A DNA stretch of 64,000 nucleotides from assembly GCA_041742235.1 (NCBI GenBank), contig JBGSJA010000019.1, forward strand, positions 902 through 64,901, in the 5' to 3' direction. Shown piece by piece: positions 42,841 to 63,954 of the stretch. The position numbers and the translations under genes are program-made. The notes below the pieces were generated by a model. It made no database searches, was not told the DNA's origin, and was given only the letters and a program-made list of their open reading frames with translations. The first letter of the stretch is position 1. Every line of letters starts with the position of its first letter. This DNA comes from Salaquimonas sp. Its GTDB lineage: Bacteria > Pseudomonadota > Alphaproteobacteria > Rhizobiales > Rhizobiaceae.

Positions 42841-42879
42841 TTGCAATGCTGCGTTGCAACACGATTGTATGCAATAGCT

Positions 42880-46325: not shown

Positions 46326-46333
46326 GAGCCTCG

Positions 46334-49268: not shown

Positions 49269-49453
49269 GCGAGGAACCGTTCGACCCGAAAAAACTGATC
49301 GACGCGATGGCCCCGTTCCTGGGACTGGAAGTCGCCGCCGAATACAGGCCGGGCGTCGCCGCCCACCTGTCTGCGGCCCACCGGATCGCGCAGGACGTTC
49401 TGGCCGCGCAAATCGACGACGATGCCGAACAAGCGCCGGTCTTCCGCCCGTGA
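49265..49453 (+). CDS. AtzG-like small protein (DUF4089)
   Basis: 62 aa: [66 protein letters not shown] overlap upstream and GTGA overlap with the amidase downstream. Size, position and the C-terminal APVF motif fit the AtzG/GatC-like partner of AtzE. Confidence 0.6.
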
Positions 49454-50847
49454 CCGATCCATCCTTACTCACGGCGGCGGAAATTGCGGCAGGCGTTCGG
49501 GGCCGCAAGTTCAGCGCCGCCGATGTAACGGCGCATGCGCTTGGCCGGATAGCCAAACTCGATCCCTTGCTCAACGCATTCACGGCGGTCACGGCGGAGC
49601 GCGCGATCGCCAAGGCAGCCGCGGTGGATGCTGTGATCGCCGCAGGCAAGGACCCAGGACCGTTGGCCGGCGTGCCCTTCGCGGCGAAGAACCTTTTCGA
49701 CATCGAGGGCGTTGTCACGCTGGCCGGTTCGAAGATCAACCGCGACAACAACCCGGCAAGTAAGGATTCAACGCTGGTAGCCCGGATGGAGGCGGCGGGC
49801 GCGATCCTCACGGGGGCATTGAACATGGGCGAATATGCCTACGACTTCACCGGTGAGAACGTCCACTACGGACCATCGCGCAATCCGCATTCGCCCGAAC
49901 ACATGTCCGGGGGGTCGTCCGGCGGATGCGGCACCGCGGTGGCCGCAGGCATGGTTGCGCTGGCGCTGGGCTCCGACACCAATGGCTCCATCCGTGTGCC
50001 GTCCTCGCTTTGCGGATTGTTCGGCCTCAAACCGACCTATGGACGGCTGCCCCGAACCGGCACATTTCCCTTTGTTGACAGCCTCGATCATCTCGGCCCG
50101 TTCGCTCGCCGCACACAGGACCTCGCGCTTTGCCTCGACGCGATGTCCGGCGCGGACGCGGCTGACCCAACATGCTCGCCGGAGCATTTCGCGCCCGTGA
50201 CCCCTTTGCTGAAAACCGGCATTGACGGGCTGAGCATCGCGAAGGCCGGAGGCTATTTCTCGACTGGCGGCCATGCGGAGGCGTTCGAGGCGGTTGACCG
50301 CATTGCGGCGGCGCTCGATGTGTCCGGCACGGTCGCAATCGACGCGAAGGCCGCGCGCGGGGCGGCCTACCTCATCACCATGGCCGAGGGGGCATCCTTG
50401 CACCTTGAGCGTCTGCGCCGACGCCATGCGGACTTCGATCCGGACGTGCGCGACCGCCTGATTGCGGGGGCAATGATCCCGGGAGCGTGGGTGGCAAAGG
50501 CGCAGAAACTGCGCCGCGTCTTTCGCCGGCAAATGCTGGACATCTTCGAAGAAGTCGATGCGCTGATCGCGCCGGCAACGCCCTGCCGCGCGCCGCGTAT
50601 CGGGCAAAGGCTGATGACGATCGACGGCGTGGGAATGCCCGTGCGGCCCAATCTTGGCCTTTTCACCCAGCCCGTTTCATTTATCGGATTTCCGGTGGTC
50701 AGCGTTCCGGTCTGGACCGGGGGCGAACAATTGCCGATCGGCGTCCAGATCATTGCGGCCCCCTGGCGCGAGGACATCGCGCTTCGCATCGCCCATCATC
50801 TCGAGGCCGCCGGCGTGGTCCGGGCTCCGACAGCAAGGGAAGCATGA
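49450..50847 (+). CDS. amidase-signature enzyme, AtzE (1-carboxybiuret hydrolase)-like
   Basis: GTG start. GVPFAAKNLFDIEGVVTLAGSK, MSGGSSGGCGTAVAAG and GSDTNGSIRVPSSLCG give the Ser-cisSer-Lys signature. It sits directly between the AtzG-like and AtzH-like genes. Confidence 0.75.
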   Translation: MTDPSLLTAAEIAAGVRGRKFSAADVTAHALGRIAKLDPLLNAFTAVTAERAIAKAAAVDAVIAAGKDPGPLAGVPFAAKNLFDIEGVVTLAGSKINRDNNPASKDSTLVARMEAAGAILTGALNMGEYAYDFTGENVHYGPSRNPHSPEHMSGGSSGGCGTAVAAGMVALALGSDTNGSIRVPSSLCGLFGLKPTYGRLPRTGTFPFVDSLDHLGPFARRTQDLALCLDAMSGADAADPTCSPEHFAPVTPLLKTGIDGLSIAKAGGYFSTGGHAEAFEAVDRIAAALDVSGTVAIDAKAARGAAYLITMAEGASLHLERLRRRHADFDPDVRDRLIAGAMIPGAWVAKAQKLRRVFRRQMLDIFEEVDALIAPATPCRAPRIGQRLMTIDGVGMPVRPNLGLFTQPVSFIGFPVVSVPVWTGGEQLPIGVQIIAAPWREDIALRIAHHLEAAGVVRAPTAREA

Positions 50848-50848
50848 C

Positions 50849-51619
50849 GTGGAACAAAAGGGCCGCTGGGCGGGGCGCAACAACGACAAGGACAATGTCC
50901 GCGACGCGGTCTGGGGCGCGCTGGAAAATGGCGGCATGGCGCTGGGGCCGGTGTGGAGCCACATTCCCAACTTCATCGGCGCCGACATGGCCGCCTGGCG
51001 CCTTGCGCAAACCGATGCCTGGAAGCGCGCTCGCACGGTAAAATGCAACCCCGATCCGCCGCAAGTTCCGGTTCGCCTGCGGGCACTGTACGAAGGCAAG
51101 ATCCTCTATGCGCCGGTGCCCTATCTCACGAAGGATTTTCCGTATCTTCGGATCGATCCGGAACGGCTGAAGACAAATGGCATCTCCTTCGAGCTGGCGG
51201 CGACATCGGAAGGATACATGACGCATGGTGAACGGATCGAATTCGAGGAAGTCGAACCGCTCGATTTCTGCGTCGTTGGCTCGGTCGCGGTGAGCCGCGA
51301 AGGTGGCCGCACCGGCAAGGGCGCAGGCTTTGCCGACCTTGAGACGGGCATTTTCCGGGAACTTGGAATCATCACCGCAGCGACCCCGATGGCGACGACC
51401 ATCCACTCCTCGCAGCTCGTCGACAATTCGCGCGTGTTCATGATGAAGCACGATTCCCCGCTCGATTTCATCGCCACGGAAGCGGAGCTGATCGTCACCG
51501 GAAACAGTGCGCCGCGCCCGCGCGGGGTAGCGTGGGAATTCGTGGAGGCCGACCAGTTTGAGAGCATCCCTTTCCTGAAAGCATTGCGCGAACGGATGCT
51601 GCAGCGCGGGGATGGCTGA
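50849..51619 (+). CDS. 5-formyltetrahydrofolate cyclo-ligase family protein
   Basis: The frame of ORF 50654..51619 has no ATG before the conserved part. I call the GTG at 50849, 1 nt after the amidase stop, giving (M)EQKGRWAGRNNDKDNVRDAVWGALE. Further motifs: KCNPDPPQVPVR ... FCVVGSVAVSREGGRTGKGAGFADLE ... HDSPLDFI. The start call is uncertain. Confidence 0.6.
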   Translation: MEQKGRWAGRNNDKDNVRDAVWGALENGGMALGPVWSHIPNFIGADMAAWRLAQTDAWKRARTVKCNPDPPQVPVRLRALYEGKILYAPVPYLTKDFPYLRIDPERLKTNGISFELAATSEGYMTHGERIEFEEVEPLDFCVVGSVAVSREGGRTGKGAGFADLETGIFRELGIITAATPMATTIHSSQLVDNSRVFMMKHDSPLDFIATEAELIVTGNSAPRPRGVAWEFVEADQFESIPFLKALRERMLQRGDG

Positions 51620-52019
51620 CATGGTCGTCAACGATCCGCAGGTTCACGCAGAAGTCTGCGCCGTGTTCGAGCGCTACGAAAAGGCGCTGGTATCAAACGA
51701 CATCGCCGTGCTCGACGAACTGTTCTGGCAGGACGAGCGTGTGCTGCGATACGGCATCGGCGAGAACCTTTACGGTGTCGGCGAGATCCTCGCCTTCCGA
51801 AAGGCGCGGCCATCGGCAGGGCTGGCTCGGGATTTGTCGAAGACGGTGATCACCACTTTCGGCGCCGACTTCGCCACGGCATCGACGCTGTTTCATCGCA
51901 TCAATGCGCCGGGAAAGGTCGGCCGGCAGATGCAGACCTGGGTGCGCATGGCCGGCATCTGGAAGGTGGTCGCGGCGCATGTGAGCATCATCGACGCGCC
52001 GGACGCTGGCGCGCCATAG
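51612..52019 (+). CDS. AtzH-like / HpxZ-like NTF2-fold protein (DUF3225)
   Basis: VFERYEKALVSNDIAVLDELFWQDERVLRYGIGENLYGVGEILAFRKAR ... GRQMQTWVRMAGIWKVVAAHVS. It overlaps the preceding stop by 8 nt; an alternative ATG lies at 51621. Confidence 0.65.
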   Translation: MADMVVNDPQVHAEVCAVFERYEKALVSNDIAVLDELFWQDERVLRYGIGENLYGVGEILAFRKARPSAGLARDLSKTVITTFGADFATASTLFHRINAPGKVGRQMQTWVRMAGIWKVVAAHVSIIDAPDAGAP

Positions 52020-52041
52020 GCACCCTTGCTATTGGAACCCG

Positions 52042-52716
52042 ATGCAAACCTCCGCCGAAGCCATACGCCATGAACTGGCGCGCCGGATCGTAACCCGCCG
52101 GATAGAACCGGGAAGCGTGCTCGACGAAACGCAGCTTGCCGCCGAATTCTCCGTCTCGCGCACGCCGGTGCGCGAAGCGCTGCGCAAGCTTGCGACGCTT
52201 GGCCTGGTCGAACACCGCGCCCATCGCAGGACCACCGTGAGCAAGCCCGATCCGCAAATGCTTGCCGGAATGTTCGCGGTGATGGCGCATCTGGAAATGC
52301 TGTGTGCCGGCTTGAGCGCGGTGAAGATGGGTCCGGCGGAGCGCAACCGGCTTGAACAGATGCATGAGCGGATGGGGGCATTGGTTCGCGCCGGCGACGC
52401 GGAAAGCTACGCAATCGCCAACGAAGCTTTTCACTCGGCCATCTACGAGGGCACGAAGAACGCCTATCTGGCTGAGATCACGACCAACACGCGTCTGCGC
52501 CTGCAGGCGTTCCGGCGGGCGCAATTTGCCGCGATGGGGCGCATAGCATCATCGCATTGCGAGCACGGCATGATCGTGGATGCCATTTTGCGCGGTGAGC
52601 GCGACATCGCGCAATCGGCCATGCTTGCCCATATCGGCCATGTCGAGGATGCGTGGCAGCATGTTTCCGCAATGCCTCACGCCGAAGCCGAGACAAAGGC
52701 CCGCCAGGACTTGTAG
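52042..52716 (+). CDS. GntR family transcriptional regulator, FadR subfamily (FCD domain)
   Basis: LDETQLAAEFSVSRTPVREALRKLATLGLVEHRAHRRTTV, followed by the FCD pattern (MAHLEMLCAGLSA ... ANEAFHSAIYEG ... CEHGMIVDAIL). Confidence 0.8.
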   Translation: MQTSAEAIRHELARRIVTRRIEPGSVLDETQLAAEFSVSRTPVREALRKLATLGLVEHRAHRRTTVSKPDPQMLAGMFAVMAHLEMLCAGLSAVKMGPAERNRLEQMHERMGALVRAGDAESYAIANEAFHSAIYEGTKNAYLAEITTNTRLRLQAFRRAQFAAMGRIASSHCEHGMIVDAILRGERDIAQSAMLAHIGHVEDAWQHVSAMPHAEAETKARQDL

Positions 52717-54422
52717 CTCGAAATGTCGCGCGCGCCTTGGATGGCTTGCGCCTCGACAAGAAAGCCCTGGACGGCCGTTCCGTTCTTCAGTCGCAACGTG
52801 CCGATGCCAAGCGGCGCCGGTATGCCCGCAACGAAACTGCCGTAAGCTTCCCGCGACATCGACCAGACCTCGACCGCGATTTCCTCGCCCGTGCCTTCGG
52901 GAACTCGCAACAGTCCCGGCTTGGGCGGCACGGTTCCCGCCAGGGCGTAAAGCCGGTAATCGGCAGTCGTTGAAGTTGCTTCGACGAAATTCGCGTTCCG
53001 GCTGGTCAGCTCATGGTTGAGCGGCATGCCAGACAAATGCGCGCCGACGACAGCGAGCCGGATTTCCTGCCCTGGAACGGTAGGTTCAGAAGCGATGCCG
53101 GTTTCGACAAGGCTCGCCAGGCCCGCAAGCATTGCGTCCGACCCCGCCTTGCCAATGAGTGTAAGCGACGACGGAAGCCCGTCTGCGCGCATTCCGGCCG
53201 GAACCGAGAAAGCCGCAAGGTCGAGCAGGTTCACGAAATTGGTGTATGTCCCGAGGTTGGAATTGAGCCGCACCGGATCGGCCAGAACTTCTTCTACTGT
53301 GTAGACCGTCGGGATGGACGGCACCGCCAGCATGTCGATCGAACTCAACACGGGTTCGACGGCGCGGCGCAGCGCGGCGAGCCGGTACAGCGCGTCGAAT
53401 GTATCCACCGAGTTGAATTTGGAGGCGCCGGAAATGATAGCGCGTGTCACCGGGTGCAGCGCATCGGGGTTCCGTTCGATGATGCCTCGAACGGCATGAT
53501 AACGCTCGGCCACCCATGGCCCCTCGTAAAGCAGGCGGGCAACATCGAAGAACGGCGTGAAGTCGATTTCGCGGATGCTGCCACCGATTGTGGCCAGCCG
53601 TTCCAGATCCGCCTCATATGCCTTTTCGGCGATAGCATCTCCAAAGAACTGCCGGTCGGCATTGCGTGGAACACCGATACGGAGCATTGGCGGCGCGGCT
53701 GCGATGCCCGCGGGCGGCAATCTGCGGGACATGAAATCGGCGGCGTCGTATCCGGCGGCGACCGCAGCGACTTCGGCGGCATCGGCGGCGTTTGCTGCAA
53801 ACACCGATATCGTGTCGAGCGTCCGGCAGGCGGGCACGACGCCTGTGGCGGAGAGCAGTCCAAGGCTGGGCTTCAAGCCGGCAATGCCGTTGAGCGCCGC
53901 CGGCACGCGTCCGGAACCTGCCGTATCCGTGCCGAGCGAAAACGCGGCGATGCCTGCGCCGACCGCCACTGCCGAACCCGAACTTGAGCCGCCGGGCACG
54001 AGGTCCGGCCGCAGAGTGTTCTTCGGAACGCCGTAGGGCGAGCGTACGCCGACAAGGCCGGTGGCAAACTGGTCGAGATTGGTCTTGCCGATGACGATCG
54101 CGCCGGCCGCCTCCAGCAGCCCCACGACATGCGCCGAAACTGTCGGTACATAGGCGAATTCGGGGCAAGCGGCCGTTGTCGGCATGCCGGCAACATCGAT
54201 ATTGTCCTTGACGGCGAATGGCAGGCCGAAAAGCGGCTTGCCCGCTGCGTCCTCCCTTTCGTGTTTTAGCGCGGCCTTGAGCGCGTCATCGCGGTCGCGC
54301 AATGTGATGAAAATCGCATCATCGCCATGCGAGGCGATCCTTGCATAGGTGGTTTCGATTGCCTCGACGGGCGACATGGCCCGCCATGTTTGAAAAGATC
54401 TGGCTTTCGGATTTCTGGACAT
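52677..54422 (-). CDS. allophanate hydrolase (AtzF-like: amidase domain plus C-terminal allophanate-hydrolase domain)
   Basis: GLPFAVKDNIDVAGMPTTAACP, GGSSSGSAVAV and the C-terminal LRLKNGTAVQGFLVEAQAIQGARDISSYKSWRAF. An alternative start lies at 54377 (MSPVEAIE). The 3' end overlaps the convergent regulator gene by 40 nt. Confidence 0.8.
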   Translation of the reverse strand: MSRNPKARSFQTWRAMSPVEAIETTYARIASHGDDAIFITLRDRDDALKAALKHEREDAAGKPLFGLPFAVKDNIDVAGMPTTAACPEFAYVPTVSAHVVGLLEAAGAIVIGKTNLDQFATGLVGVRSPYGVPKNTLRPDLVPGGSSSGSAVAVGAGIAAFSLGTDTAGSGRVPAALNGIAGLKPSLGLLSATGVVPACRTLDTISVFAANAADAAEVAAVAAGYDAADFMSRRLPPAGIAAAPPMLRIGVPRNADRQFFGDAIAEKAYEADLERLATIGGSIREIDFTPFFDVARLLYEGPWVAERYHAVRGIIERNPDALHPVTRAIISGASKFNSVDTFDALYRLAALRRAVEPVLSSIDMLAVPSIPTVYTVEEVLADPVRLNSNLGTYTNFVNLLDLAAFSVPAGMRADGLPSSLTLIGKAGSDAMLAGLASLVETGIASEPTVPGQEIRLAVVGAHLSGMPLNHELTSRNANFVEATSTTADYRLYALAGTVPPKPGLLRVPEGTGEEIAVEVWSMSREAYGSFVAGIPAPLGIGTLRLKNGTAVQGFLVEAQAIQGARDISSYKSWRAFVSASA

Positions 54423-54648
54423 TCGATTGCAGCCTGTTTTTTGGGCAAATTGCCGGCATTGGCATCTCGCGGGGCACTATTCGCCCCATGCCACCCAATG
54501 AAGCAAGAGTTCGGCCAGTTTGACCGCAATCACCGCAGGTTTCGGCTGACGGCAGTTTTCGAGTGCAAACGGCCCGGACAATCATGCTGCGACGCAAAAA
54601 CGTCATGCATCTCGGCTAGCGTAAGGGAGTTCACCCGCAAGGCCGGAT

Positions 54649-55413
54649 ATGTTCTCCCTTGGCAAGAAAAGAGCGTTGGTCGTCGGTATCGCCAACGAAA
54701 ACTCGATTGCGTGCGGTTGCGCCCGCGCCTTCAGGGCGCAGGGTGCGGAACTTGCGGTTACCTACCTCAACGACAAGGCCGAACCCCATGTCAAGCCCGT
54801 TGCCGAGGACCTTGGCGCGAGCATGTTCATGCCGCTCGACGTAAGCAGGGATGGCGAAATCGAAGCGGTGTTTTCGCAGATCGGCCGGCAATGGGGAAGC
54901 CTGGACATCTTGCTGCATTCGATTGCCTATGCGCCGCGTGAGGACTTGCACGGGCGGGTCATCGACTGCTCGGCGTCCGGTTTTGCCATGGCCATGGACA
55001 TCTCGGTCCATTCGTTCTTGCGGATGATCCGCCTGGCCGAGCCATTGATGACCTCCGGCGGCACCTGCCTCGCAGTTTCATTCTTCGGCTCGTCGCGCGT
55101 GGTCTCCAACTACAACATGATGGGCCCGGTGAAGGCAGCGCTCGAAAGCGCCGTCAGGTACGCAGCCGCCGAACTCGGCGGGAAGGGCATCACCGTCCAT
55201 GCCCTCTCCCCCGGTCCGCTGCGCACTCGGGCGGCTTCCGGCATTTCCCATTTCGACGAGATGCTCGACGCGGCGGCCCGGCGTGCGCCGACGCACCAGC
55301 TTGCGACGATCGAGGATGTCGGCGCCTTCGCTGCATTCCTCGCTTCCAACGAAGCGCGAAACGTCACGGGTGGTGTTCACGAAATCGATGGCGGTTATTC
55401 CATCACAGCTTGA
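54649..55413 (+). CDS. fabI: enoyl-[acyl-carrier-protein] reductase (NADH), FabI-type
   Basis: LGKKRALVVGIANENSIACGCARAF, LLHSIAYAP, YNMMGPVKAALES (Y-x6-K) and ALSPGPLRTRAASG. Confidence 0.8.
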   Translation: MFSLGKKRALVVGIANENSIACGCARAFRAQGAELAVTYLNDKAEPHVKPVAEDLGASMFMPLDVSRDGEIEAVFSQIGRQWGSLDILLHSIAYAPREDLHGRVIDCSASGFAMAMDISVHSFLRMIRLAEPLMTSGGTCLAVSFFGSSRVVSNYNMMGPVKAALESAVRYAAAELGGKGITVHALSPGPLRTRAASGISHFDEMLDAAARRAPTHQLATIEDVGAFAAFLASNEARNVTGGVHEIDGGYSITA

Positions 55414-55422
55414 GGACAGACC

Positions 55423-57912
55423 ATGGCCAGCATTTTCGACTTGCTAGAACCTTCCCGCCAGAAAAACCTGCCCTATGCCGAGACGGATGTTCTGGGGAAG
55501 GTTCGCCACGCGCTGATGGATGCACAGCGCGAAGTGAACGACATTGCGCACAGCCACGGCATCCAGACGGCGGCCCTCCTCGCCCACAGCCGGCGCATCG
55601 TCGACAGTCATTCGGGCCGGGGCGGCAATACGCTCGAAATTGCCAACAAGGTTCTGGATGAACTTCGCTCCACGCAACAGGAAGGCAGGCTTGGCGAAGC
55701 CTGGCTTGAATACCTGACGGATGCAGGCGAGCGTTTCGTGCTGACGATGGACACCTTGCGCAAGCGCGGCGACATCTTCCTCGAACATGAACAGGCCGGG
55801 TGCCCGCCGGTGCTCGTCTATGAGTACGAAAAGGTCATGGATGGAGCGGACCTTCCTTTTCCTTCCAACTACGAGTTGCTGCGGATCTTGCCCCCGGCGG
55901 GGATCGAAGTGAAGGACTGGAAGCGGCCCTATATGATCATCGACCCGCGCGCAGGGCACGGGCCGGGGATCGGTGGTTTCAAGTCCGACAGCCAGGTCGG
56001 CGTCGCCCTTCGTGACGGGCACCCGGTTTATTTCGTTTCTTTTCGCCGCGAGCCGGAACCCGGTCAGTATCTGGCCTATGTAACCCGCACCCAGTCAGCC
56101 TTCGTGCGCGAAGTGATGCGCCGTCACCCCGAATCGCCAAAGCCAGTCATAACCGGCAATTGCCAGGGCGGGTGGGCAACGCTGCTGCTGGCTGCGATGA
56201 ACCCCGATCTCACCGGGCCGGTGGTCATCAACGGCGCTCCGGTAGCCACATGGGCGGGCGAGGTGGGCCTCTACCCGATGCGCTACAATGGCGGGGTCGT
56301 CGGCGGAACGTGGATACCGATGGCGCTCTCCGATGTCGGCGGCGGAATCTTCGACGGGGCGCACCTGGTGCAGAATTTCGAGCTGCTCAATCCCTCGCGA
56401 ACCCTGTTCCACAAATACACCGACCTCTTCAGGGACATCGACAAGGGCGATGAACGCTTCCTCGAATTCGAGAGATGGTGGGGCGGCTTTTTCCTGATGA
56501 GCGAACCCGAGATCAAATGGATCGTCGAGCAACTTTTCGTCGGCAATCGCCTGGTCAAGAACGAGGCCCGGATCGAACCGGGCCGGCCGGTCGACCTGAA
56601 GGCAATCCGAGCGCCCATCATTGTGTTCGCCTCGCATGGCGACAACATCACCCCGCCCCAGCAGGCGCTCAACTGGATCGCTGAAACCTATTCGGACGTC
56701 AACGAGATCAAGATCCGCGGCCAGCGCATCATCTACATGGTGCACAACGAGGTTGGCCATCTGGGCATTTTCGTATCCTCGCAAATCGCCAACAAGGAAC
56801 ATGCCGAGGTAGCATCGACGCTCAAGACGATCGAGGCGCTGGCGCCCGGGCTGTACGAGATGCGCATCGATGATGTTGCCGGTGACGGGATGCACCGGCG
56901 CTTCACCGTTGGTTTCACCGAGCGTACGCTGGACGACATTCGCGCGCTCGACGACGACCACCACGACGAGCGGCCTTTCGCGGCGGTGGCAAGGGCCTCG
57001 GAAATGCAGGCGCAGGCCTATGACTTGTTCGTCCGGCCGTTCGTCAAGGCCGCGGTTACCGACACTACTGCAGAGCTGAGCCGTGCCATGCACCCGCAAA
57101 GGCTGACCCGCGCCCTCATGTCGTCGCGCAGTCCGCTCGTTCGCGGCCTCGAGGAGCGCGCCGGGCAGGTTCGGGCGGAACGCAAGCCCGCCGCCCCGGA
57201 CAATCCCTTCCTGGCGGCAGAGGCCCTGTGGGTGGAGATGGCCGGGCAGGCGATCGATCTGTGGCGCGATCAACGGGACATGATGACGGAACTGATGTTC
57301 CACGGTGTCTGGGGACAGCCATGGATGCGCGCCTTCGGCCGCTCGCACGATGCGCGGCGCACGCTGAAGAACGCCCATGAATTGAGGGCCCTGCCGGAAG
57401 TAAGCGCGGCGCTTTTCAACATCGAGCGCGGCGGCTTCATCGAAGCCGTCATCCGCATGCTGATCCTGCTTGCCGAGAACCGCGGCACAGTGCGCCGCGA
57501 CCGCCTCGAAAGGGCAAGCCGCGTGCTGACACAGGACGAACCGTTCAAGTCGCTGACAGCGGAGCGGCGCGCCATGATCATCCATGAACAGACCCTCATC
57601 GCGACCTACGAACCCGACGCCGCGATCGACACCCTGCCGGTCCTCCTCAAGACTGCGGAGGAACGCGACCTCGCGGCGCGCATCGTCCAGTACATTCCGG
57701 GCGCGATCGGCGAAATGACGCCGAAGACCCTCGAGATGCTGCAGCGGTTTCACAAGGTTCTCGATCTGCCACCGGTTACCGCCGACATTCTTTCCGATCC
57801 ACTTTCCGCAGGCGTGCAAGCGGCACCAATGGCGGCTGACCCCGCATTGGCTGGCGGTGGGAACGGGCGTGCAAGGCGCAAGACTGCATCGCAAGAGGCG
57901 GCCGGCGAATGA
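55423..57912 (+). CDS. DUF3141 family protein with PHA-synthase-like alpha/beta-hydrolase core (829 aa)
   Basis: GAGGA lies 6 nt before the ATG. The lipase-box-like GNCQGGWATLLLAA (G-x-C-x-G-G as in PhaC), FASHGDNITPPQQALNW and HNEVGHLGIFVS suggest a Cys-Asp-His triad. It has a long helical C-terminal extension. Confidence 0.65.
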   Translation: MASIFDLLEPSRQKNLPYAETDVLGKVRHALMDAQREVNDIAHSHGIQTAALLAHSRRIVDSHSGRGGNTLEIANKVLDELRSTQQEGRLGEAWLEYLTDAGERFVLTMDTLRKRGDIFLEHEQAGCPPVLVYEYEKVMDGADLPFPSNYELLRILPPAGIEVKDWKRPYMIIDPRAGHGPGIGGFKSDSQVGVALRDGHPVYFVSFRREPEPGQYLAYVTRTQSAFVREVMRRHPESPKPVITGNCQGGWATLLLAAMNPDLTGPVVINGAPVATWAGEVGLYPMRYNGGVVGGTWIPMALSDVGGGIFDGAHLVQNFELLNPSRTLFHKYTDLFRDIDKGDERFLEFERWWGGFFLMSEPEIKWIVEQLFVGNRLVKNEARIEPGRPVDLKAIRAPIIVFASHGDNITPPQQALNWIAETYSDVNEIKIRGQRIIYMVHNEVGHLGIFVSSQIANKEHAEVASTLKTIEALAPGLYEMRIDDVAGDGMHRRFTVGFTERTLDDIRALDDDHHDERPFAAVARASEMQAQAYDLFVRPFVKAAVTDTTAELSRAMHPQRLTRALMSSRSPLVRGLEERAGQVRAERKPAAPDNPFLAAEALWVEMAGQAIDLWRDQRDMMTELMFHGVWGQPWMRAFGRSHDARRTLKNAHELRALPEVSAALFNIERGGFIEAVIRMLILLAENRGTVRRDRLERASRVLTQDEPFKSLTAERRAMIIHEQTLIATYEPDAAIDTLPVLLKTAEERDLAARIVQYIPGAIGEMTPKTLEMLQRFHKVLDLPPVTADILSDPLSAGVQAAPMAADPALAGGGNGRARRKTASQEAAGE

Positions 57913-59300
57913 GGCTCGAGAACCGAACCCTTGAGGAAATGAACCCGGGCGATACGGCGGAACTTCGCCGACTTGTCACGGCCGATGACCTCTATGTATT
58001 TGCTGTCGCGTCGGGCAACTTCAATCCGATGCACCTGCCCGGCATCGATGGCGACGGCGACGGCAAGGCCGACGGGGTCGCACCGGGAATGTTCGTTGGT
58101 TCGTTCATTTCGGCGGTGCTCGGAACGATGCTGCCGGGACCGGGAACCCTCTACCGCTCGCAGAAATTCGATTTCCACGAGAGGGCCCATGCCGGCGACG
58201 AGCTGGTGTCGCGCGTCGTGGTAAAGGAAAAGGCCAAGGACGGAACGGTCACGCTGGTGACCGAGGTGCGCAGGGTTGCCGACGATGCCTTGATCGTTTC
58301 GGGAAAGGCCAAGGTGCAGGCGCCGCCGCGAAAATTCATTGCCGAAGACATCGAGGTGCCGGGACTTGTCGTCCAGCGGCACCGCCATTTCGACGCGCTG
58401 CTGGAAAAGGCCAAGCCGCTTCCGGCCATCGTGACGGCGGTGGTCTGTCCGCAGGAAGCAAACTCGCTGGGCGGTGCGGTTCTCGCGGCCAAGGAAAGCA
58501 TCATCACGCCGATCCTGATCGGTGACAGCGAAAAAATCGCCGCCGCGGCAAGCGAAATCGGAGCCGACATTTCCGGTTTCGAGATCATCGACGTCAAGGA
58601 TGCCGATGGCGCAGCACGGATGGCATGTGCGCTGGTCAACCAGGGCAAGGCCTCGGCAGTGATGAAAGGGCATATCCATACCGATGAACTGCTCAAACCG
58701 ATGCTTGAACGCGAAACCGGCCTGCGTGCCGGACGCCGCTTCACCCATGTCTTCGTCATGGACGTGCCGGGCATGCCCCATCCCATCATGGTAACGGATG
58801 CGGCAATCAACATCGCCCCGGACCTGTCGACGAAGGTCGACATCATCCAGAACGCCATCGACCTCGCGCTTTCGCTTGGCATCGAGGCTCCGCGCGTCGG
58901 TGTCCTGTCGGCCGTCGAAACGGTCAATCCCGCCATACAGTCCTCCATCGATGCGGCGCTTTTGTCCAAGATGGCGGAACGCGGCCAGATCAAGGGCGGT
59001 TTCGTCGACGGGCCGCTGGCGATGGACAACGCGGTCGATCTTGCCGCGGCGCGCACGAAAGGCATCCGCTCGGAAGTTGCTGGCCAGGCCAATATTCTCG
59101 TCGTTCCCGGTATCGACGCGGGCAACATGCTGGCCAAGCAACTGTCCTTCATCAGCCACGCCGAAGGGGCCGGCCTGGTGCTCGGCGCCAAGGTTCCGGT
59201 CATCCTCAACTCGCGTTCGGACAGTTCCATGTCGAGATTGGCTTCCTGTGCCGTCGCAGCGATCCACCATTTTCATTCGACCGGCCGGGACAGGAAATGA
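57909..59300 (+). CDS. MaoC-like hot-dog domain fused to phosphate acetyl/butyryl-transferase (PTA_PTB)
   Basis: ATGA overlap upstream. N-terminus: LYVFAVASGNFNPMH ... GDELVSRVVVKEK. From about residue 150: AIVTAVVCPQEANSLGGAVLAAKESIITPILIGD ... AVMKGHIHTDELL ... VTDAAINIAPD ... ANILVVPGIDAGNMLAK, the PTA/PTB pattern. Confidence 0.8.
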   Translation: MRLENRTLEEMNPGDTAELRRLVTADDLYVFAVASGNFNPMHLPGIDGDGDGKADGVAPGMFVGSFISAVLGTMLPGPGTLYRSQKFDFHERAHAGDELVSRVVVKEKAKDGTVTLVTEVRRVADDALIVSGKAKVQAPPRKFIAEDIEVPGLVVQRHRHFDALLEKAKPLPAIVTAVVCPQEANSLGGAVLAAKESIITPILIGDSEKIAAAASEIGADISGFEIIDVKDADGAARMACALVNQGKASAVMKGHIHTDELLKPMLERETGLRAGRRFTHVFVMDVPGMPHPIMVTDAAINIAPDLSTKVDIIQNAIDLALSLGIEAPRVGVLSAVETVNPAIQSSIDAALLSKMAERGQIKGGFVDGPLAMDNAVDLAAARTKGIRSEVAGQANILVVPGIDAGNMLAKQLSFISHAEGAGLVLGAKVPVILNSRSDSSMSRLASCAVAAIHHFHSTGRDRK

Positions 59301-60484
59301 GCCGCAATATTCTCACCCTCAATGCGGGCTCGTCATCGCTGAAGTTCGCGCTGTTCCCCAACGAGGGCGACGCGCCACTGGCCACCGGAATTGTGGACCG
59401 CATCGGCGCTGATGCAAGCCTGCGTATCGTGGATGCCCAAGGCATGGAACTTCCAAAGCGCGGCCATGGCGATTTCGCCGATCACGCACGCGCCCTCGCC
59501 TCCGCACTTGGAATACTGCAGTCGGAATTTGCCGGCATGGAAGTTGAAGCGGTCGGGCATCGCGTGGTTCATGGCGGTCCGGACTTCTCCGCTCCGGTAG
59601 CGCTGGACGATAAGGTGATGAAACGGCTCGAACAATTCTCGCCGCTCGCGCCCCTTCACCAGCCGCACAATCTCGCCGGTATCCGGGCGGCGATGGCGGC
59701 CTTTCCGGAGGCGGCCCAAATCGCCTGTTTCGACACGGCGTTTCACCGCAACCAGCCATTCGTGAACGATACGTTCGCATTGCCGCGCGAGTGGTACGAA
59801 AAGGGCGTGCGCCGGTACGGCTTCCACGGGATCAGCTATGAATACATGGCAGGCGCACTGGCGCAGACCGCGCCGCTGCTTTACGCCGGCCGGATCGTGG
59901 TCGCGCATCTGGGCAATGGCGCTTCCATGTGCGCAATGTCGAACGGGCGCTCGGTCGCCTCGTCCATGGGTTTTTCAGCGCTTGACGGCCTGCCCATGGG
60001 AACGCGGTGCGGGCAACTCGATCCGGGCGTCATCCTCTATCTTCTGGAACAGGAGAAACTGGAGCCGGCGGAGATTTCGGACCTCCTGTACAAGCGATCG
60101 GGCCTGCTCGGCATTTCCGGCCTGTCGCACGACATGCGCACACTAGAGGCCTCCGAAGACCCCGCCGCCAAGGATGCTATCGACTATTTCGTTTTCCGTA
60201 TCCAGCGCGAACTGGGCGCCATGGCCGCGGCTCTTGGCGGCTTGGACGCACTCGTCTTTTGTGGCGGGATCGGCGAGAACTCGCGCCTCGTTCGCGCACG
60301 GGTCTGCGAGCGGCTTGAATGGATGGGCATCGAGATAGATCACGGCAGGAACGCGGCCAACGACCCTGTGATCAGCAGCGAACTTGCGCGCGTAAAGGTT
60401 CTGGTGATTCCGACCAACGAAGAACTCGTGATCGCAAGGGCAGCACGCATGCTGTCCGGCGGGCGTGAGAGGAACGCGGCGTGA
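59297..60484 (+). CDS. ackA: acetate (short-chain acyl) kinase
   Basis: ILTLNAGSSSLKFALF, AVGHRVVHGG, YGFHGISYEY, VAHLGNGASMCA and FCGGIGENS. ATGA overlap upstream. Confidence 0.9.
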   Translation: MSRNILTLNAGSSSLKFALFPNEGDAPLATGIVDRIGADASLRIVDAQGMELPKRGHGDFADHARALASALGILQSEFAGMEVEAVGHRVVHGGPDFSAPVALDDKVMKRLEQFSPLAPLHQPHNLAGIRAAMAAFPEAAQIACFDTAFHRNQPFVNDTFALPREWYEKGVRRYGFHGISYEYMAGALAQTAPLLYAGRIVVAHLGNGASMCAMSNGRSVASSMGFSALDGLPMGTRCGQLDPGVILYLLEQEKLEPAEISDLLYKRSGLLGISGLSHDMRTLEASEDPAAKDAIDYFVFRIQRELGAMAAALGGLDALVFCGGIGENSRLVRARVCERLEWMGIEIDHGRNAANDPVISSELARVKVLVIPTNEELVIARAARMLSGGRERNAA

Positions 60485-60595
60485 CATCGGCCTTGAAGGC
60501 AGAGGCGGCGGCCGCGATGATCCCGGACGAACCAGCGGTCGCGGGATGGCCGATGTACCGAAAACAGAAATGAACTGGCAGGGCAGGTGGAAGTC

Positions 60596-61378
60596 ATGGG
60601 TGCAAGCAAGGTAGCGGTCGTCACCGGATCAACCAGCGGCATTGGGCTCGCCGTTGCGCGCGCGCTGGCGGGCGCCGGCCATGCCGTCGTCCTCAACGGC
60701 CTTGGCGATCCTTCCGAGGTCGAAGGATTGCGCGCTGACATCGAAAGGCAATCTGGAAGCGAGATCGCCTTTCACAATGCGGACATGTCGAAACCCGACC
60801 AGATCGGGAATCTGGTGGAATTCACCAATGCCCGTTTTGGCGCGATTGACATCGTGGTCAACAATGCCGGCATCCAGACCGTTGCGCCGATCGAGGAATT
60901 CCCCGTCGACCGCTACGACCTGATTCTCGCGATCAACATGTCATCGGCCTGGCACATGACGCGCCTCACCATGGCCGGGATGAAGCAGCGCAAATGGGGG
61001 CGCTATATCAACATTGCCTCGGCCCACGCACTGGTGGCTTCGCCCTTCAAGTCGGCCTATGTCATGTCAAAGCACGCGGTTCTCGGATTGACGAAAACCG
61101 TGGCGCTCGAAGGCGCGGAATTCGGCGTTACGGCGAACGCCATATGCCCGGGTTACGTTCTTACCCCGCTGGTCGAGAAACAGATACCCGAGACCGCGAA
61201 GGCGCGAGGCATCAGCGAAGAGGAAGTGATCCGCGACGTGCTTCTTGCGGCCCAGCCCACGCGCCAGTTTGTCGGCGCCGACCAGATCGGCGCGCTGGCA
61301 ACGTTCCTGTGCTCGCCTGCGGCATCCCAGATCACAGGTACCGCCATTCCGGTCGATGGCGGCTGGACTGCGCATTGA
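60596..61378 (+). CDS. bdhA: 3-hydroxybutyrate dehydrogenase
   Basis: ATG at 60596 with AGGTGGA 4 nt upstream. KVAVVTGSTSGIGLAVARAL, NNAGIQ, NIASAHALVASPFKSAYVMSKHAVLGLTK, ICPGYVLTPLVEKQI and VDGGWTAH. Confidence 0.85.
   Translation: MGASKVAVVTGSTSGIGLAVARALAGAGHAVVLNGLGDPSEVEGLRADIERQSGSEIAFHNADMSKPDQIGNLVEFTNARFGAIDIVVNNAGIQTVAPIEEFPVDRYDLILAINMSSAWHMTRLTMAGMKQRKWGRYINIASAHALVASPFKSAYVMSKHAVLGLTKTVALEGAEFGVTANAICPGYVLTPLVEKQIPETAKARGISEEEVIRDVLLAAQPTRQFVGADQIGALATFLCSPAASQITGTAIPVDGGWTAH

Positions 61379-61752: not shown

Positions 61753-63954
<2,202 letters not shown>

What the first reader, a model, noticed from the sequence alone, without database searches (positions are those of the whole stretch)
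54649..61378. fabI / DUF3141 (PhaC-like Cys-Asp-His) / MaoC-PTA / ackA / bdhA cluster: candidate route from polyhydroxybutyrate to ATP
Seen:
- fabI and the DUF3141 gene are 9 nt apart. DUF3141 to MaoC-PTA and MaoC-PTA to ackA are ATGA overlaps. bdhA follows after 111 nt.
- The 829-aa DUF3141 protein carries GNCQGG (the G-x-C-x-G-G lipase-box variant of PHA synthases).
- It also has HGDNITPP and VGHLGIF segments that resemble the Asp and His regions of PhaC.

Known:
- PTA/PTB enzymes and acetate/butyrate kinases convert acyl-CoA to acyl phosphate and then to acid plus ATP.
- BdhA oxidises 3-hydroxybutyrate.
- Thiolytic release of 3-hydroxybutyryl-CoA from PHB has been reported in Ralstonia.
- As I recall, Sinorhizobium meliloti has a PhoB-controlled orfA-pta-ackA-fabI operon.

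Inference:
- The DUF3141 protein may act as a PhaC-like acyl-transfer enzyme that releases (R)-3-hydroxyacyl-CoA from polymer or oligomers.
- Substrate-level phosphorylation would follow (3HB-CoA to 3HB-phosphate to 3HB plus ATP), then BdhA.
- The FabI-like reductase is a possible electron sink towards butyryl units.
- The biochemical role of DUF3141 is, to my knowledge, unassigned.
Basis: partly seen in the sequence, partly recalled or inferred. Interest (0 to 1): 0.7.

Follow-up and report, generated by a model that had tools for sequence, protein, structure and literature searches.

The report
PhaC-like enzyme operon tied to PHB
This is a real five-gene operon, widespread in bacteria, in which an uncharacterised relative of the bioplastic (PHB) synthase sits with ATP-yielding acyl-phosphate enzymes behind a binding site for the PHB-sensing regulator, so it is a strong but untested candidate for a route that turns stored PHB into energy.

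Summary
fabI, DUF3141, MaoC-PTA, ackA and bdhA lie at 54649-61378 with the stated spacings and motifs.

- **PhaC relationship.** DUF3141 is a remote PhaC homologue (hhalign 96.7%; the 13 best Foldseek hits are all PhaC). Cys247, Asp407 and His446 are kept in about 38 of 40 diverse relatives.
- **Regulation.** A perfect PhaR box (54585-54596) precedes fabI. Its core recurs in orthologous promoters: 17 of 30 loci against about 3 expected.
- **Published support.** The pta-ackA operon of Bradyrhizobium is derepressed in a phaR mutant. The S. meliloti orfA-pta-ackA-fabI operon has a DUF3141 gene as orfA.
- **Neighbours in 80 genomes.** FabI (46), AckA (39), MaoC-PTA (38), ScoAB (about 17) and BdhA-like (10) recur. 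Phasin and PhaC also appear.

So the PHB link is well supported, but the chemistry is not shown. My best reading is a granule-bound, CoA-dependent PHB-cleaving transacylase that feeds a PTB-type transacylase and kinase. ATP is probably made from acetyl- or butyryl-CoA, not directly from 3HB-CoA.

Points against the direct route:
- The kinase pocket is acetate-like.
- An oxo-ester bond cannot pay for ATP.
- The MaoC catalytic Asp is Asn here.
- No Pho box was found.

Verdict: a known operon type of unassigned function. Interest is moderately high.

The parts
54585..54599 (.). PhaR (AniA/PhbF)-type operator, TGCTGCGACGCAAAA. The palindromic core is TGCGACGCA. The minus-strand 12-mer TGCGTCGCAGCA (54585-54596) matches TGCRNYGCASMA perfectly. 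It lies about 50-60 nt upstream of the fabI ATG.
   Evidence: - It is one of only three perfect matches in the 64 kb.
- It fits the S. meliloti core YGCRNYGCR (PMC12542648) and the B. diazoefficiens consensus (PMC6201568).
- The core TGCN3GCA occurs within 200 nt upstream of fabI in 17 of 30 orthologous loci, against about 10% expected (binomial 4.5e-10).
- Binding was not tested.
54649..55413 (+). fabI: enoyl-ACP/CoA reductase of the PRK07533 subfamily (254 aa). It has the FabI-type Tyr-x6-Lys spacing (YNMMGPVK).
   Evidence: - NF005717: 422 bits against a cut-off of 337. PF13561: E 4.8e-82.
- Best PDB matches are all FabI.
- It is the most frequent neighbour of DUF3141, in 46 of 80 loci.
- Its substrate (ACP or CoA ester) was not tested.
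55423..57912 (+). DUF3141 protein (829 aa).
- N-terminal helical hairpin: aa 19-124.
- PhaC-like alpha/beta-hydrolase core: aa about 135-510.
- All-helical C-terminal region: aa 513-780.
- Disordered tail: aa 802-829.
   Evidence: - PF11339: 754 bits.
- AF2 model: pLDDT 91.6.
- The 13 best Foldseek PDB hits are all PhaC.
- hhalign against a class I PhaC: 96.7%, E 3.8e-10.
- TIGR01836 (class III PhaC): only 40 bits against a cut-off of 365.
56155..56172 (+). GNCQGG nucleophile elbow. Cys247 is the codon at 56161-56163.
   Evidence: - It sits between strand 242-246 and helix 248-259 in the model.
- It aligns with GFCVGG of C. necator PhaC and IGYCIGG of Psychrobacter PhaC.
- Cys is present in 38 of 40 diverse relatives.
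56635..56658 (+). HGDNITPP. Asp407 is the codon at 56641-56643, the putative catalytic acid or base.
   Evidence: - It follows strand 399-404.
- It aligns with the catalytic-Asp motifs of PhaC, SREDHIVP and LQDHIA.
- The column is invariant in the 82-sequence alignment.
56752..56772 (+). VGHLGIF. His446 is the codon at 56758-56760, the putative catalytic His.
   Evidence: - It follows strand 435-441.
- His is present in 39 of 40 relatives.
- It lies inside the stretch matched by the class III PhaC model, aa 190-459.
- No residue-level alignment to the PhaC His was obtained.
57909..58373 (+). MaoC / PhaJ-like hot-dog domain of the fusion protein (aa 1-155). The hydratase motif reads SGNFNPMH: the catalytic Asp is replaced by Asn37 (58017-58019) and His42 is kept.
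   Evidence: - PF01575: 29 bits.
- Best PDB matches are (R)-specific enoyl-CoA hydratases 5cpg and 1iq6. In those alignments the catalytic Asp aligns with Asn37.
- Most alphaproteobacterial orthologues have Asn; several also lose the His. Chromatiaceae, some betaproteobacteria and Ruegeria keep Asp and His.
58374..59300 (+). Phosphotransacylase domain of the PTB (phosphate butyryltransferase) type.
   Evidence: - PF01515. NF008852: 419 bits.
- Best PDB match is phosphate butyryltransferase 7vg9 (225 bits), against 56 bits for classical Pta 1td9.
- Substrate range was not tested.
59297..60484 (+). Acetate/propionate-family kinase (395 aa).
   Evidence: - PF00871: 398 bits. TIGR00016: 389 bits.
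- Pocket compared with M. thermophila AckA: Val93, Leu122 and Phe179 are kept. Pro232 is Ala in 39 of 39 operon-linked kinases.
60596..61378 (+). bdhA: (R)-3-hydroxybutyrate dehydrogenase. The ATG is at 60596; the ORF opens at GTG 60587.
   Evidence: - TIGR01963 PHB_DH: 350 bits against a cut-off of 307.
- In the closest relatives (L002, L004) scoA and scoB lie between ackA and bdhA.

Best explanation
This is a PhaR-controlled operon for using stored poly-3-hydroxybutyrate (PHB).

**Shown**
- The five genes form one compact unit.
- DUF3141 is a cytoplasmic, PhaC-derived alpha/beta-hydrolase with a conserved Cys-Asp-His set.
- A PhaR-type operator sits in the promoter, here and in orthologous promoters.
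- The same partners recur across proteobacteria.

**Inferred**
1. When PHB granules titrate PhaR off the operator, the operon is expressed and DUF3141 goes to the granule.
2. Cys247 attacks the polyester and forms a 3-hydroxybutyryl-S-enzyme, which is the PhaC reaction run backwards.
3. CoA resolves that intermediate to (R)-3-hydroxybutyryl-CoA. The ester-bond energy is kept as a thioester instead of being lost to hydrolysis.
4. The resident PHB-cycle enzymes (PhaB, PhaA) convert part of this to acetyl-CoA.
5. Where a hydratase is active, another part goes by way of crotonyl-CoA and the FabI-type reductase to butyryl-CoA. That step re-oxidises NADH.
6. The PTB-type transacylase and the kinase then make ATP from the acyl-CoAs.
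7. BdhA, and ScoAB in relatives, handle free 3-hydroxybutyrate and acetoacetate.

The net effect is ATP by substrate-level phosphorylation from PHB when respiration or growth is limited.
For: - **PhaC homology and triad conservation.**
  - hhalign 96.7%.
  - The 13 best Foldseek hits are all PhaC, E 3e-9 to 3e-7.
  - Cys, Asp and His are present in about 38-39 of 40 relatives at 29-63% identity.
  - They follow the canonical strands in a model of pLDDT 91.6.
- **PhaR control.**
  - A perfect 12-mer lies at 54585-54596.
  - The core is enriched in orthologous promoters: 17 of 30 against about 10% expected, and 36 of 76 against 21.5%.
  - B. diazoefficiens blr3456-blr3459 (pta, ackA) rises 7.2-fold in a phaR mutant (PMC10888616).
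- **Genomic partners in 80 loci.**
  - FabI 46, AckA 39, MaoC-PTA 38, ScoA/ScoB 16-17, BdhA-like 10. Orders vary, and the loci span alpha-, beta- and gammaproteobacteria.
  - Psychrobacter has phaB-like, phasin, PhaC and then DUF3141.
  - Phasin lies next to DUF3141 in S. americanum and in a distant clade.
  - Distant clades again show PTA, AckA, an SDR and CoA transferases.
- **Granule location.** PhbX of P. extremaustralis is 93.5 kDa, lies downstream of phbF-phbP and is on PHB granules. It did not restore PHA synthesis in a synthase-negative host (PMC4041789).
- **Precedent for thiolysis.** The Cys-type depolymerase PhaZa1 cleaves PHB thiolytically, as reviewed in PMC7147478.
- **C4 substrates.** The transacylase is of the PTB type.
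- **Open physiological question.** Anaerobic PHB fermentation has been proposed for Methylocystis, but no route is known. Methylocystis loci L026 and L079 carry the cluster.
Against: - No enzyme assay exists for any DUF3141 protein. The direction and the acceptor are inference.
- The MaoC hydratase domain lacks its catalytic Asp in this organism, so the crotonyl-CoA branch needs another hydratase here.
- The kinase pocket looks acetate/propionate-like. That fits acetyl-phosphate but not obviously C4 acyl phosphates.
- Roseibium and Labrenzia carry only fabI-DUF3141, without pta-ackA nearby. About a third of the loci show none of the partners.
- PhaR regulons also include synthesis-phase genes such as phasins, so PhaR control does not fix the direction.
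- PhbX was not proven by sequence to be a DUF3141 protein (one search did not retrieve it).
- S. meliloti induces the operon under phosphate starvation. A phosphate-consuming step is awkward under that condition.
Confidence: 0.4

Rival explanations
1. **Phosphorolytic PHB depolymerase.** The 3-hydroxybutyryl-S-Cys247 intermediate is resolved by phosphate, as in GAPDH, and gives 3-hydroxybutyryl phosphate directly. The kinase then makes ATP from it. The transacylase optionally converts it to the CoA ester.
For: - Some loci have AckA next to DUF3141 but no PTA: L022, L040, L055.
- In R. capsulatus SP18, DUF3141 and AckA lie in one 1287-aa reading frame and PTA is missing.
- Loci with PTA only also exist (L006, L036; P0149). 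This model explains those too.
- A PHO4 phosphate transporter lies next to the cluster in L023 and L032.
Against: - No alpha/beta-hydrolase phosphorolase is known to me.
- An oxo-ester is energetically far below an acyl phosphate (standard free energies).
- The usual gene order is DUF3141-PTA-AckA, with translational coupling.
- The R. capsulatus arrangement looks like a deletion. Its linker has out-of-frame-like composition.
- The kinase pocket is acetate-like.
Confidence: 0.1
2. **Synthesis direction.** DUF3141 is an unconventional PHA synthase or chain-transfer enzyme. AckA and PTA activate acetate or C4 acids to CoA esters. [quoted passage not shown] This is the reading given for Burkholderia 'group D PhaC' clusters in PMC8231600.
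For: - The nearest structures are synthases, and the PhaC Trp (W425) region aligns with ERWWGG.
- The fused PhaJ-like domain is a monomer-supplying enzyme type.
- PhaR derepression coincides with granule formation.
- DUF3141 lies next to phaC and phasin in Psychrobacter and Pseudomonas.
Against: - PhbX did not restore PHA synthesis in P. putida GPp104 (PMC4041789).
- There is no PhaC_N domain, and the score is far below the PhaC family cut-offs.
- The MaoC catalytic Asp is lost in most alphaproteobacteria, and the domain is absent in S. meliloti.
- A FabI reductase and the catabolic BdhA and ScoAB have no role in synthesis.
- Genomes with DUF3141 next to a canonical PhaC would not need a second synthase.
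Confidence: 0.15
3. **Hydrolase.** DUF3141 is a granule-associated hydrolytic depolymerase, oligomer hydrolase or acyl-thioesterase that releases free 3-hydroxybutyrate. BdhA and ScoAB then take over. Pta-AckA-FabI are co-regulated acetate and redox overflow enzymes with no direct substrate link.
For: - BdhA and ScoAB follow in the extended operons.
- DUF3141 has an HG-type motif (DPRAGHGPGIGG) where PhaC has INKYYILDL. That resembles hydrolase oxyanion-hole motifs; this is inference.
- The B. diazoefficiens authors read pta-ackA as acetyl-CoA overflow.
Against: - The nucleophile is a conserved Cys rather than Ser, as in the transacylating PhaC and PhaZa1 enzymes.
- ATGA translational coupling to the transacylase, and its recurrence in distant clades, argue for a direct link.
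Confidence: 0.15
4. **Not PHB-related.** The operon is a phosphate-stress or acetyl-phosphate signalling module, as first described in S. meliloti. OrfA/DUF3141 acts on some other ester or lipid.
For: - PhoB-dependent induction in S. meliloti (Summers 1999, as cited in PMC8231600).
- A PHO4 transporter is a neighbour in two loci.
- A FabI partner could point to lipid metabolism.
Against: - There is no Pho box here.
- The PhaR box is conserved.
- Phasin and PhaC are neighbours, and PhbX is on granules.
- Phosphate limitation is itself a PHB-accumulating condition.
Confidence: 0.05

Closest known systems
Sinorhizobium meliloti orfA-pta-ackA-fabI operon (Summers, Denton and McDermott 1999; PhoB-controlled)
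   Same: - It has the same four gene families.
- In S. meliloti plasmid CP050559.1 the order is DUF3141, phosphate acetyltransferase, acetate/propionate kinase, fabI. OrfA is therefore a DUF3141 protein, 41% identical to the window protein.
   Different: - The gene order differs: here fabI comes first.
- The S. meliloti transacylase (318 aa) has no MaoC domain.
- The window adds bdhA.
- No Pho box was found here, whereas a PhaR box is present.
- A strict PhaR core was not seen near the S. meliloti orfA start.
PHA synthases PhaC, classes I-IV (5hz2, 5t6o, 5xav, 9knj)
   Same: - It has an alpha/beta-hydrolase core with a cap region, the G-x-C-x-G-G box, and Asp and His after the canonical strands.
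- The conserved Trp region is shared.
- PhaCs are the best structural matches.
   Different: - Sequence identity is only 14-18%.
- There is no PhaC_N domain.
- It has an extra N-terminal helical hairpin and a C-terminal helical region of about 300 aa.
- It has a DPRAGHGPGIGG motif instead of INKYYILDL.
- It scores far below the PhaC family cut-offs.
- The probable member PhbX lacks synthase activity in vivo.
Intracellular PHB depolymerase PhaZa1 of Ralstonia eutropha (Cys-Asp-His; thiolytic cleavage to 3HB-CoA; Uchino et al. 2007)
   Same: - It is a cysteine-based alpha/beta-hydrolase acting on native granules.
- It provides the precedent that a PhaC-like active site can release 3-hydroxybutyryl-CoA with CoA (reviewed in PMC7147478).
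- Depolymerase genes are PhaR targets (PMC6201568, PMC12542648).
   Different: - There is no match to PHB_depo_C or to PhaZ models.
- The architecture and size differ.
- PhaZa1 is not encoded together with pta-ackA.
Clostridial Ptb-Buk (phosphate butyryltransferase and butyrate kinase)
   Same: - It is an acyl-CoA to acyl phosphate to acid plus ATP route for C4 units.
- The transacylase domain here is closest to a solved phosphate butyryltransferase, 7vg9.
- From my own knowledge, Ptb-Buk accepts 3-hydroxybutyryl-CoA in engineered pathways. PMC2921503 and PMC3430982 mention 3-hydroxybutyryl phosphate.
   Different: - The kinase is of the acetate/propionate family, not Buk (TIGR02707: 50 bits).
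- The transacylase is fused to a PhaJ-like hot-dog domain.
PhbX of Pseudomonas extremaustralis (phbF-phbP-phbX; Catone et al. 2014)
   Same: - It is about 93 kDa, has an alpha/beta-hydrolase domain and is annotated as a PHA synthase.
- It lies next to the PhaR-type regulator and a phasin.
- It matches the 'DUF3141 next to phaR and phaP' pattern reported for Pseudomonas islands.
   Different: - Identity with DUF3141 is inferred from size, context and annotation, not from sequence.
- It has no pta-ackA-fabI partners in that cluster, although some P. aeruginosa islands do have them.

Membership tests
DUF3141 (Pfam PF11339) | Score above the Pfam gathering threshold over most of the model | tested here: met
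   754 bits against a cut-off of 29.7; model positions 1-559 of 582 matched.
PHA synthase PhaC | Lipase-box variant G-x-C-x-G-G with a catalytic Cys at the nucleophile elbow | tested here: met
   GNCQGG aligns with GFCVGG and IGYCIGG. It sits in a strand-Cys-helix arrangement in the model. Cys is present in 38 of 40 relatives.
PHA synthase PhaC | Catalytic Asp and His completing the Cys-Asp-His triad | tested here: met
   Asp407 aligns with the PhaC catalytic-Asp motif. His446 follows the next core strand and lies inside the class III PhaC model match. Both are at least 95% conserved.
PHA synthase PhaC | PhaC_N domain (PF07167), or membership by the curated class I/III models | tested here: not met
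   No PF07167 hit. TIGR01836: 40 bits against 365. TIGR01838: 19.5 bits against 623.
PHA synthase PhaC | Polymerises (R)-3-hydroxyacyl-CoA, or complements a synthase-negative strain | not testable with these tools
   There is only indirect evidence: PhbX, a probable family member, failed to complement P. putida GPp104 (PMC4041789).
Intracellular PHB depolymerase (PhaZa1 type) | PHB_depo_C domain or PhaZ family models | tested here: not met
   No such hit in Pfam or NCBIfam at E <= 0.001. The Bacillus PhaZ structures (8ynv) rank below all PhaC hits in Foldseek.
(R)-specific enoyl-CoA hydratase (MaoC/PhaJ) | Hot-dog fold with the hydratase-2 motif, including the catalytic Asp and His | tested here: not met
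   The fold and family match (PF01575; 5cpg and 1iq6). However, the catalytic Asp aligns with Asn37; the His is present.
Phosphotransacylase plus acyl kinase (Pta-AckA / Ptb-Buk type substrate-level phosphorylation) | A PTA_PTB domain and an acetokinase-family kinase encoded together | tested here: met
   PF01515 and PF00871 are present with an ATGA overlap. The transacylase is PTB-like. The kinase is AckA-like with an acetate-type pocket. Substrate specificity was not tested.
PhaR (AniA/PhbF) regulon | Operator matching TGCRNYGCASMA / YGCRNYGCR in the promoter | tested here: met
   A perfect 12-mer lies at 54585-54596 on the minus strand. The core is conserved in orthologous promoters. Binding and regulation in this organism were not tested. 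Regulation is shown for the Bradyrhizobium pta-ackA operon (PMC10888616).
PhoB regulon (as for the S. meliloti operon) | A Pho box (two CTGTCAT-like repeats 11 bp apart) in the promoter | tested here: not met
   No match with 3 or fewer mismatches upstream of fabI. The only nearby match lies at the fabI/DUF3141 junction on the minus strand, and the total count equals chance.

The most novel reading that the evidence does not exclude
DUF3141 proteins are the missing enzyme of an anaerobic or energy-limited 'PHB fermentation'. They cleave the polymer without losing the bond energy, either to CoA or, most radically, to phosphate to give 3-hydroxybutyryl phosphate directly. Together with the hydratase, the FabI-type reductase, the PTB-type transacylase and the kinase, they would dismutate 3-hydroxybutyryl units to acetate plus butyrate, yielding about three ATP per two monomers. 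This would let strict respirers survive anoxia on their storage polymer.
Probability: 0.25. Interest if true: 0.85.

Novelty: new variant of a known kind. Interest (0 to 1): 0.62.

Why it matters
PHB is one of the most common bacterial carbon and energy stores, yet how cells extract energy from it is still debated. It is unclear whether cleavage in vivo is hydrolytic or thiolytic, and whether PHB can support ATP synthesis without respiration.

DUF3141 is a very large family. The search found 3200 representative clusters, and more than 8000 90%-identity clusters were capped in a single search. It is conserved at about 70% identity across classes and has no assigned function.

Showing that it is a PhaC-derived, PhaR-controlled enzyme wired to a substrate-level phosphorylation module would have several consequences:
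- It would add a new enzyme class to the PHB cycle.
- It would explain a 25-year-old orphan operon in rhizobia.
- It would bear on bacteroid and microoxic physiology, and on starvation and anoxia survival.
- It would be relevant to engineering PHB turnover or 3-hydroxyacid production.

Tried and rejected
1. **Pho box.** A search upstream of fabI found none; the total count equals chance. A crude scan of the S. meliloti orfA upstream region also found nothing.
2. **FNR/FixK box.** The window has TTGACCGCAATCAC at 54520-54533, and S. meliloti has a similar TTGACGCAGATCAC. Perfect TTGA-N6-TCAA boxes occur in 6 of 79 loci against 0.76 expected. The window variant is not conserved, at 3 of 76, which equals chance. 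It is treated as unproven.
3. **C-terminal 288 aa.** It was modelled separately at pLDDT 91. Foldseek gave only a weak match to 2h5n (PG1108), at E 0.04. Pfam finds nothing there, and one relative has a faint TerB hit. No function could be inferred.
4. **Identity of PhbX.** A homology search from a gammaproteobacterial DUF3141 did not retrieve named Pseudomonas or Azotobacter proteins.
5. **Supplements of the S. meliloti PhaR study.** They list only the chromosomal fabI1 and fabI2, with nothing on ackA or pta.
6. **Organism of origin.** It is not recoverable from the look-ups.
7. **PhaC or phasin within 10 kb of the 80 closest loci.** They are present only in Psychrobacter, so direct linkage to phaC is clade-specific.
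8. **Triad geometry.** It could not be measured because the model coordinates are not exposed.

Full report
**1. Observation**

- fabI 54649-55413.
- DUF3141 55423-57912.
- MaoC-PTA 57909-59300.
- ackA 59297-60484.
- bdhA 60596 (ATG; the ORF opens at GTG 60587) to 61378.

The junctions are as described. fabI and DUF3141 are 9 nt apart, there are two ATGA overlaps, and 111 nt precede bdhA.

Family assignments are unambiguous:
- FabI: NF005717, 422 bits.
- DUF3141: PF11339, 754 bits.
- 'Bifunctional enoyl-CoA hydratase/phosphate acetyltransferase': NF006045, 614 bits.
- Acetokinase: PF00871, 398 bits.
- PHB_DH: TIGR01963, 350 bits.

GNCQGG, HGDNITPP and VGHLGIF are present at aa 245, 405 and 444.

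The flanks are unrelated. Upstream lies a biuret/allophanate-type nitrogen cluster, ending with allophanate hydrolase on the other strand. Downstream lies katG.

**2. DUF3141 is a remote PhaC homologue with a conserved triad**

*Sequence level.*
- phmmer against PDB gives only marginal PhaC hits (5hz2, E 0.037). It already aligns GNCQGG with GFCVGG and GDNITP with the catalytic-Asp motif.
- The class III PhaC model matches aa 190-459 at E 1.8e-10, but at 40 bits against a cut-off of 365.
- A profile of 40 diverse relatives (29-63% identity) aligns to a class I PhaC from Psychrobacter with hhalign probability 96.7%, E 3.8e-10. The alignment again pairs Cys with Cys and Asp with Asp, and covers the cap region.

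*Structure level.*
- An AlphaFold2 model built on 82 sequences has pLDDT 91.6.
- Its 13 best Foldseek PDB matches are all PhaC (9knl/9knj, 5xav, 5hz2, 5t6o, 6k3c), at E 3e-9 to 3e-7 and TM 0.44-0.61 on the target.
- Cys247, Asp407 and His446 each follow a core strand, as in canonical alpha/beta hydrolases.

*Conservation.*
- Cys is present in 38 of 40 relatives, Asp in about 38 of 40, and His in 39 of 40. One clearly degenerate lineage has lost all three.

*Differences from PhaC.*
- There is no PhaC_N domain.
- There is an N-terminal helical hairpin (aa 19-124).
- There is an all-helical C-terminal region of about 300 aa with no informative match.
- A family-specific DPRAGHGPGIGG motif replaces the PhaC INKYYILDL.

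The family is huge: 3200 representatives at E <= 1e-3. Sources annotate it only as a DUF3141 or alpha/beta hydrolase.

**3. Context across genomes**

I fetched 80 loci from one genome per species, called ORFs and clustered them. The recurrent neighbours of DUF3141 are:
- FabI, 46 loci.
- AckA, 39 loci.
- MaoC-PTA, 38 loci.
- The two subunits of a 3-oxoacid CoA transferase, 16-17 loci (PF01144).
- A BdhA-like SDR, 10 loci.

Gene orders differ between lineages:
- fabI-DUF-pta-ackA in Rhodobacterales and this window.
- pta-ackA-DUF-fabI in Bradyrhizobium and Methylocystis.
- pta-ackA-fabI-DUF in Chromatiaceae.

The differing orders argue for functional linkage rather than inherited synteny.

Other points from the loci:
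- The closest relatives (L002, L004) have fabI-DUF3141-maoC/pta-ackA-scoA-scoB-bdhA. The window looks like that operon without scoAB.
- Roseibium and Labrenzia keep only fabI-DUF3141.
- Psychrobacter has phaB-like, phasin, PhaC and then DUF3141. This matches a Pseudomonas survey in which DUF3141 always accompanies class I phaC, phaR and phaP, sometimes with eutD, ackA and fabI.
- More distant clades (35-47% identity) again show phasin, PTA without MaoC, SDR-DUF-MaoC/PTA-AckA, or CoA-transferase neighbours. One showed nothing relevant.
- In S. meliloti the plasmid operon is DUF3141, phosphate acetyltransferase (318 aa, no MaoC), kinase, fabI. This is the PhoB-controlled orfA-pta-ackA-fabI operon of Summers et al. 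1999, as cited in PMC8231600. OrfA is therefore a DUF3141 protein.
- In S. americanum a phasin gene lies next to a DUF3141 gene that is 62% identical.

**4. Regulation**

About 50-60 nt upstream of fabI lies TGCTGCGACGCAAAA.
- Its minus-strand 12-mer TGCGTCGCAGCA is a perfect match to the footprint-derived B. diazoefficiens PhaR consensus TGCRNYGCASMA (PMC6201568). It is one of three perfect matches in 64 kb.
- It also fits the S. meliloti core YGCRNYGCR (PMC12542648).

A single site proves little, but the core is conserved:
- TGCN3GCA lies within 200 nt of the fabI start in 17 of 30 orthologous loci, against about 10% expected (p about 5e-10).
- It lies near the first operon gene in 36 of 76 loci, against 21.5% expected (p about 5e-7). 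These include beta- and gammaproteobacterial loci.

Experimentally, the B. diazoefficiens operon blr3456-blr3459 contains pta (blr3457) and ackA (blr3458). In Bradyrhizobium loci L032 and L045, DUF3141 follows ackA. This operon is up 7.2-fold in a phaR mutant, at both the RNA and protein level (PMC10888616).

No Pho box was found. An FNR-like box is not conserved.

**5. Other published evidence**

PhbX of P. extremaustralis (PMC4041789):
- It is 93.5 kDa, annotated as a PHA synthase, and lies downstream of the PhaR-type phbF and the phasin phbP.
- It was identified on PHB granules.
- It did not confer PHA synthesis on a synthase-negative P. putida.
- By size, annotation and context it is very probably a DUF3141 protein. 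I could not confirm this by sequence.

Thiolytic cleavage of native granules to 3HB-CoA by the Cys-type depolymerase PhaZa1 is documented, and whether hydrolysis or thiolysis operates in vivo is stated to be open (PMC7147478).

Anaerobic PHB fermentation was proposed for Methylocystis parvus, but a genome-scale model found no route. Methylocystis loci L026 and L079 carry the cluster.

**6. The partner enzymes**

- **Transacylase.** The domain is of the PTB type. The best solved relative is phosphate butyryltransferase 7vg9 at 225 bits, against 56 bits for classical Pta. C4 acyl-CoAs are therefore plausible substrates.
- **Kinase.** It is AckA-like, not Buk-like. Of the four residues lining the acetate pocket of M. 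thermophila AckA, Val93, Leu122 and Phe179 are kept. Val is present in 33 of 39 orthologues. Pro232 is Ala in 39 of 39 operon-linked kinases. The identity of those four residues is from my memory of Ingram-Smith et al. 2005. This points to small acyl groups, with perhaps a slightly enlarged pocket.
- **MaoC domain.** It is PhaJ-like, but its catalytic Asp is Asn37 here and in most alphaproteobacteria. Some lineages also lose the His, and S. meliloti lacks the domain. Chromatiaceae, some betaproteobacteria and Ruegeria keep Asp and His. The hydratase is therefore probably ancestral to the module and inactive or repurposed in this organism.
- **FabI.** It is a genuine FabI with Tyr-x6-Lys, and it belongs to a distinct subfamily.

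**7. Mechanism**

*Shown.*
- DUF3141 has a PhaC-derived fold with a conserved triad.
- A PhaR operator is present.
- The partners are conserved across proteobacteria.

*Inferred.*
- DUF3141 acts on the granule and forms an acyl-S-Cys247 intermediate, which it passes to CoA. The product is (R)-3HB-CoA.
It is disfavoured as a net energy gain. Standard free energies of hydrolysis are about -20 kJ/mol for an oxo-ester, -31 for a thioester and -43 for an acyl phosphate. ATP synthesis costs at least 30 kJ/mol.
- A thermodynamically sound scheme that uses every enzyme of the cluster is a dismutation:
  - One 3HB-CoA goes through PhaB and PhaA to two acetyl-CoA.
  - One goes through a hydratase and the FabI-type reductase to butyryl-CoA, which consumes the NADH.
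  - All three acyl-CoAs yield ATP through the transacylase and kinase.
- BdhA and ScoAB interconvert free 3HB, acetoacetate and acetoacetyl-CoA.

*Rivals.*
- Phosphorolysis is suggested by loci with AckA only and by the R. capsulatus DUF3141-AckA single reading frame.
- A synthase role is the published guess for Burkholderia clusters, but it is weakened by PhbX, the decay of MaoC and the catabolic partners.
- A plain hydrolase is the third.
- A role unrelated to PHB is the fourth.

**8. Novelty and verdict**

The operon type has been seen before: in S. meliloti in 1999, and in the Burkholderia and Pseudomonas surveys. The PhaC resemblance of DUF3141 has also been noted.

To my knowledge and within the searchable library, no function has been assigned. 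Nobody has connected OrfA/DUF3141, PhbX, the PhaR box and the ScoAB/BdhA extension into one picture.

I rate it a new variant of a known kind (PHB mobilisation or PhaC-family enzymes). The PHB link is well supported. The biochemical mechanism is open and directly testable.

Noticed in passing
window 44472-54422: A nitrogen-scavenging cluster that looks like biuret/cyanuric-acid/allophanate catabolism. It contains an ABC transporter, an isochorismatase-family protein, an amidase, an AtzH-like protein, a GntR/FCD regulator and allophanate hydrolase. It is unrelated to the finding.
   Followed up: partly
window 61762-63954; L013, L014, L021, L060: katG follows bdhA in the window. In Roseibium and Labrenzia, a LysR regulator plus katG lie immediately upstream of fabI-DUF3141. 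The FabI/KatG neighbourhood recurs in 7 loci.
   Followed up: no
window 42847-42858 (-) and 48311-48322 (+): These are the only two other perfect matches to the PhaR consensus TGCRNYGCASMA in the window. The first lies in an intergenic gap ahead of the ABC-transporter genes.
   Followed up: no
L007 10001-13864 (Rhodobacter capsulatus SP18): DUF3141 and AckA lie in one uninterrupted 1287-aa reading frame, joined by a low-complexity linker. The transacylase gene is missing. It is either a deletion artefact or a natural fusion that bypasses PTA.
   Followed up: partly
window 58017-58019 (Asn37 of MaoC-PTA); orthologues in L002-L081: The catalytic Asp of the PhaJ-like hydratase motif is Asn in most alphaproteobacterial copies. 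The His is also lost in Bradyrhizobium and Methylocystis. Both residues are intact in Chromatiaceae, some betaproteobacteria and Ruegeria. The domain is absent in S. meliloti.
   Followed up: yes
window 59297-60484 (AckA aa 228) and 38 orthologues: The residue equivalent to Pro232 of the M. thermophila acetate-kinase pocket is Ala in all 39 operon-linked kinases. This is a clade signature of unknown consequence.
   Followed up: partly
L023 4877-6532; L032: A PHO4-family phosphate transporter lies directly next to the cluster in two unrelated alphaproteobacteria. This echoes the phosphate link of the S. meliloti operon.
   Followed up: no
L006, L007, L008, L040, L047 (after scoB); L067, L071: A small alpha/beta hydrolase of about 275 aa follows scoB in five loci. 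An Abhydrolase_3 esterase follows DUF3141 in two Chromatiaceae. These could be oligomer or ester hydrolases of the same pathway.
   Followed up: no
L011, L039, L048, L058, L063, L081: Perfect FNR/FixK-type boxes (TTGA-N6-TCAA) lie upstream of the operon in 6 of 79 loci, against 0.76 expected. This hints at oxygen control in some lineages. The window has only an imperfect TTGACCGCAATCAC at 54520-54533.
   Followed up: partly
contig of P0158; L048 12457-17709: In one distant clade a hemerythrin gene lies between DUF3141 and the CoA-transferase genes. In Moraxella lincolnii, DUF3141 is followed by dfp (CoA biosynthesis) and two acyl-CoA synthetases.
   Followed up: no
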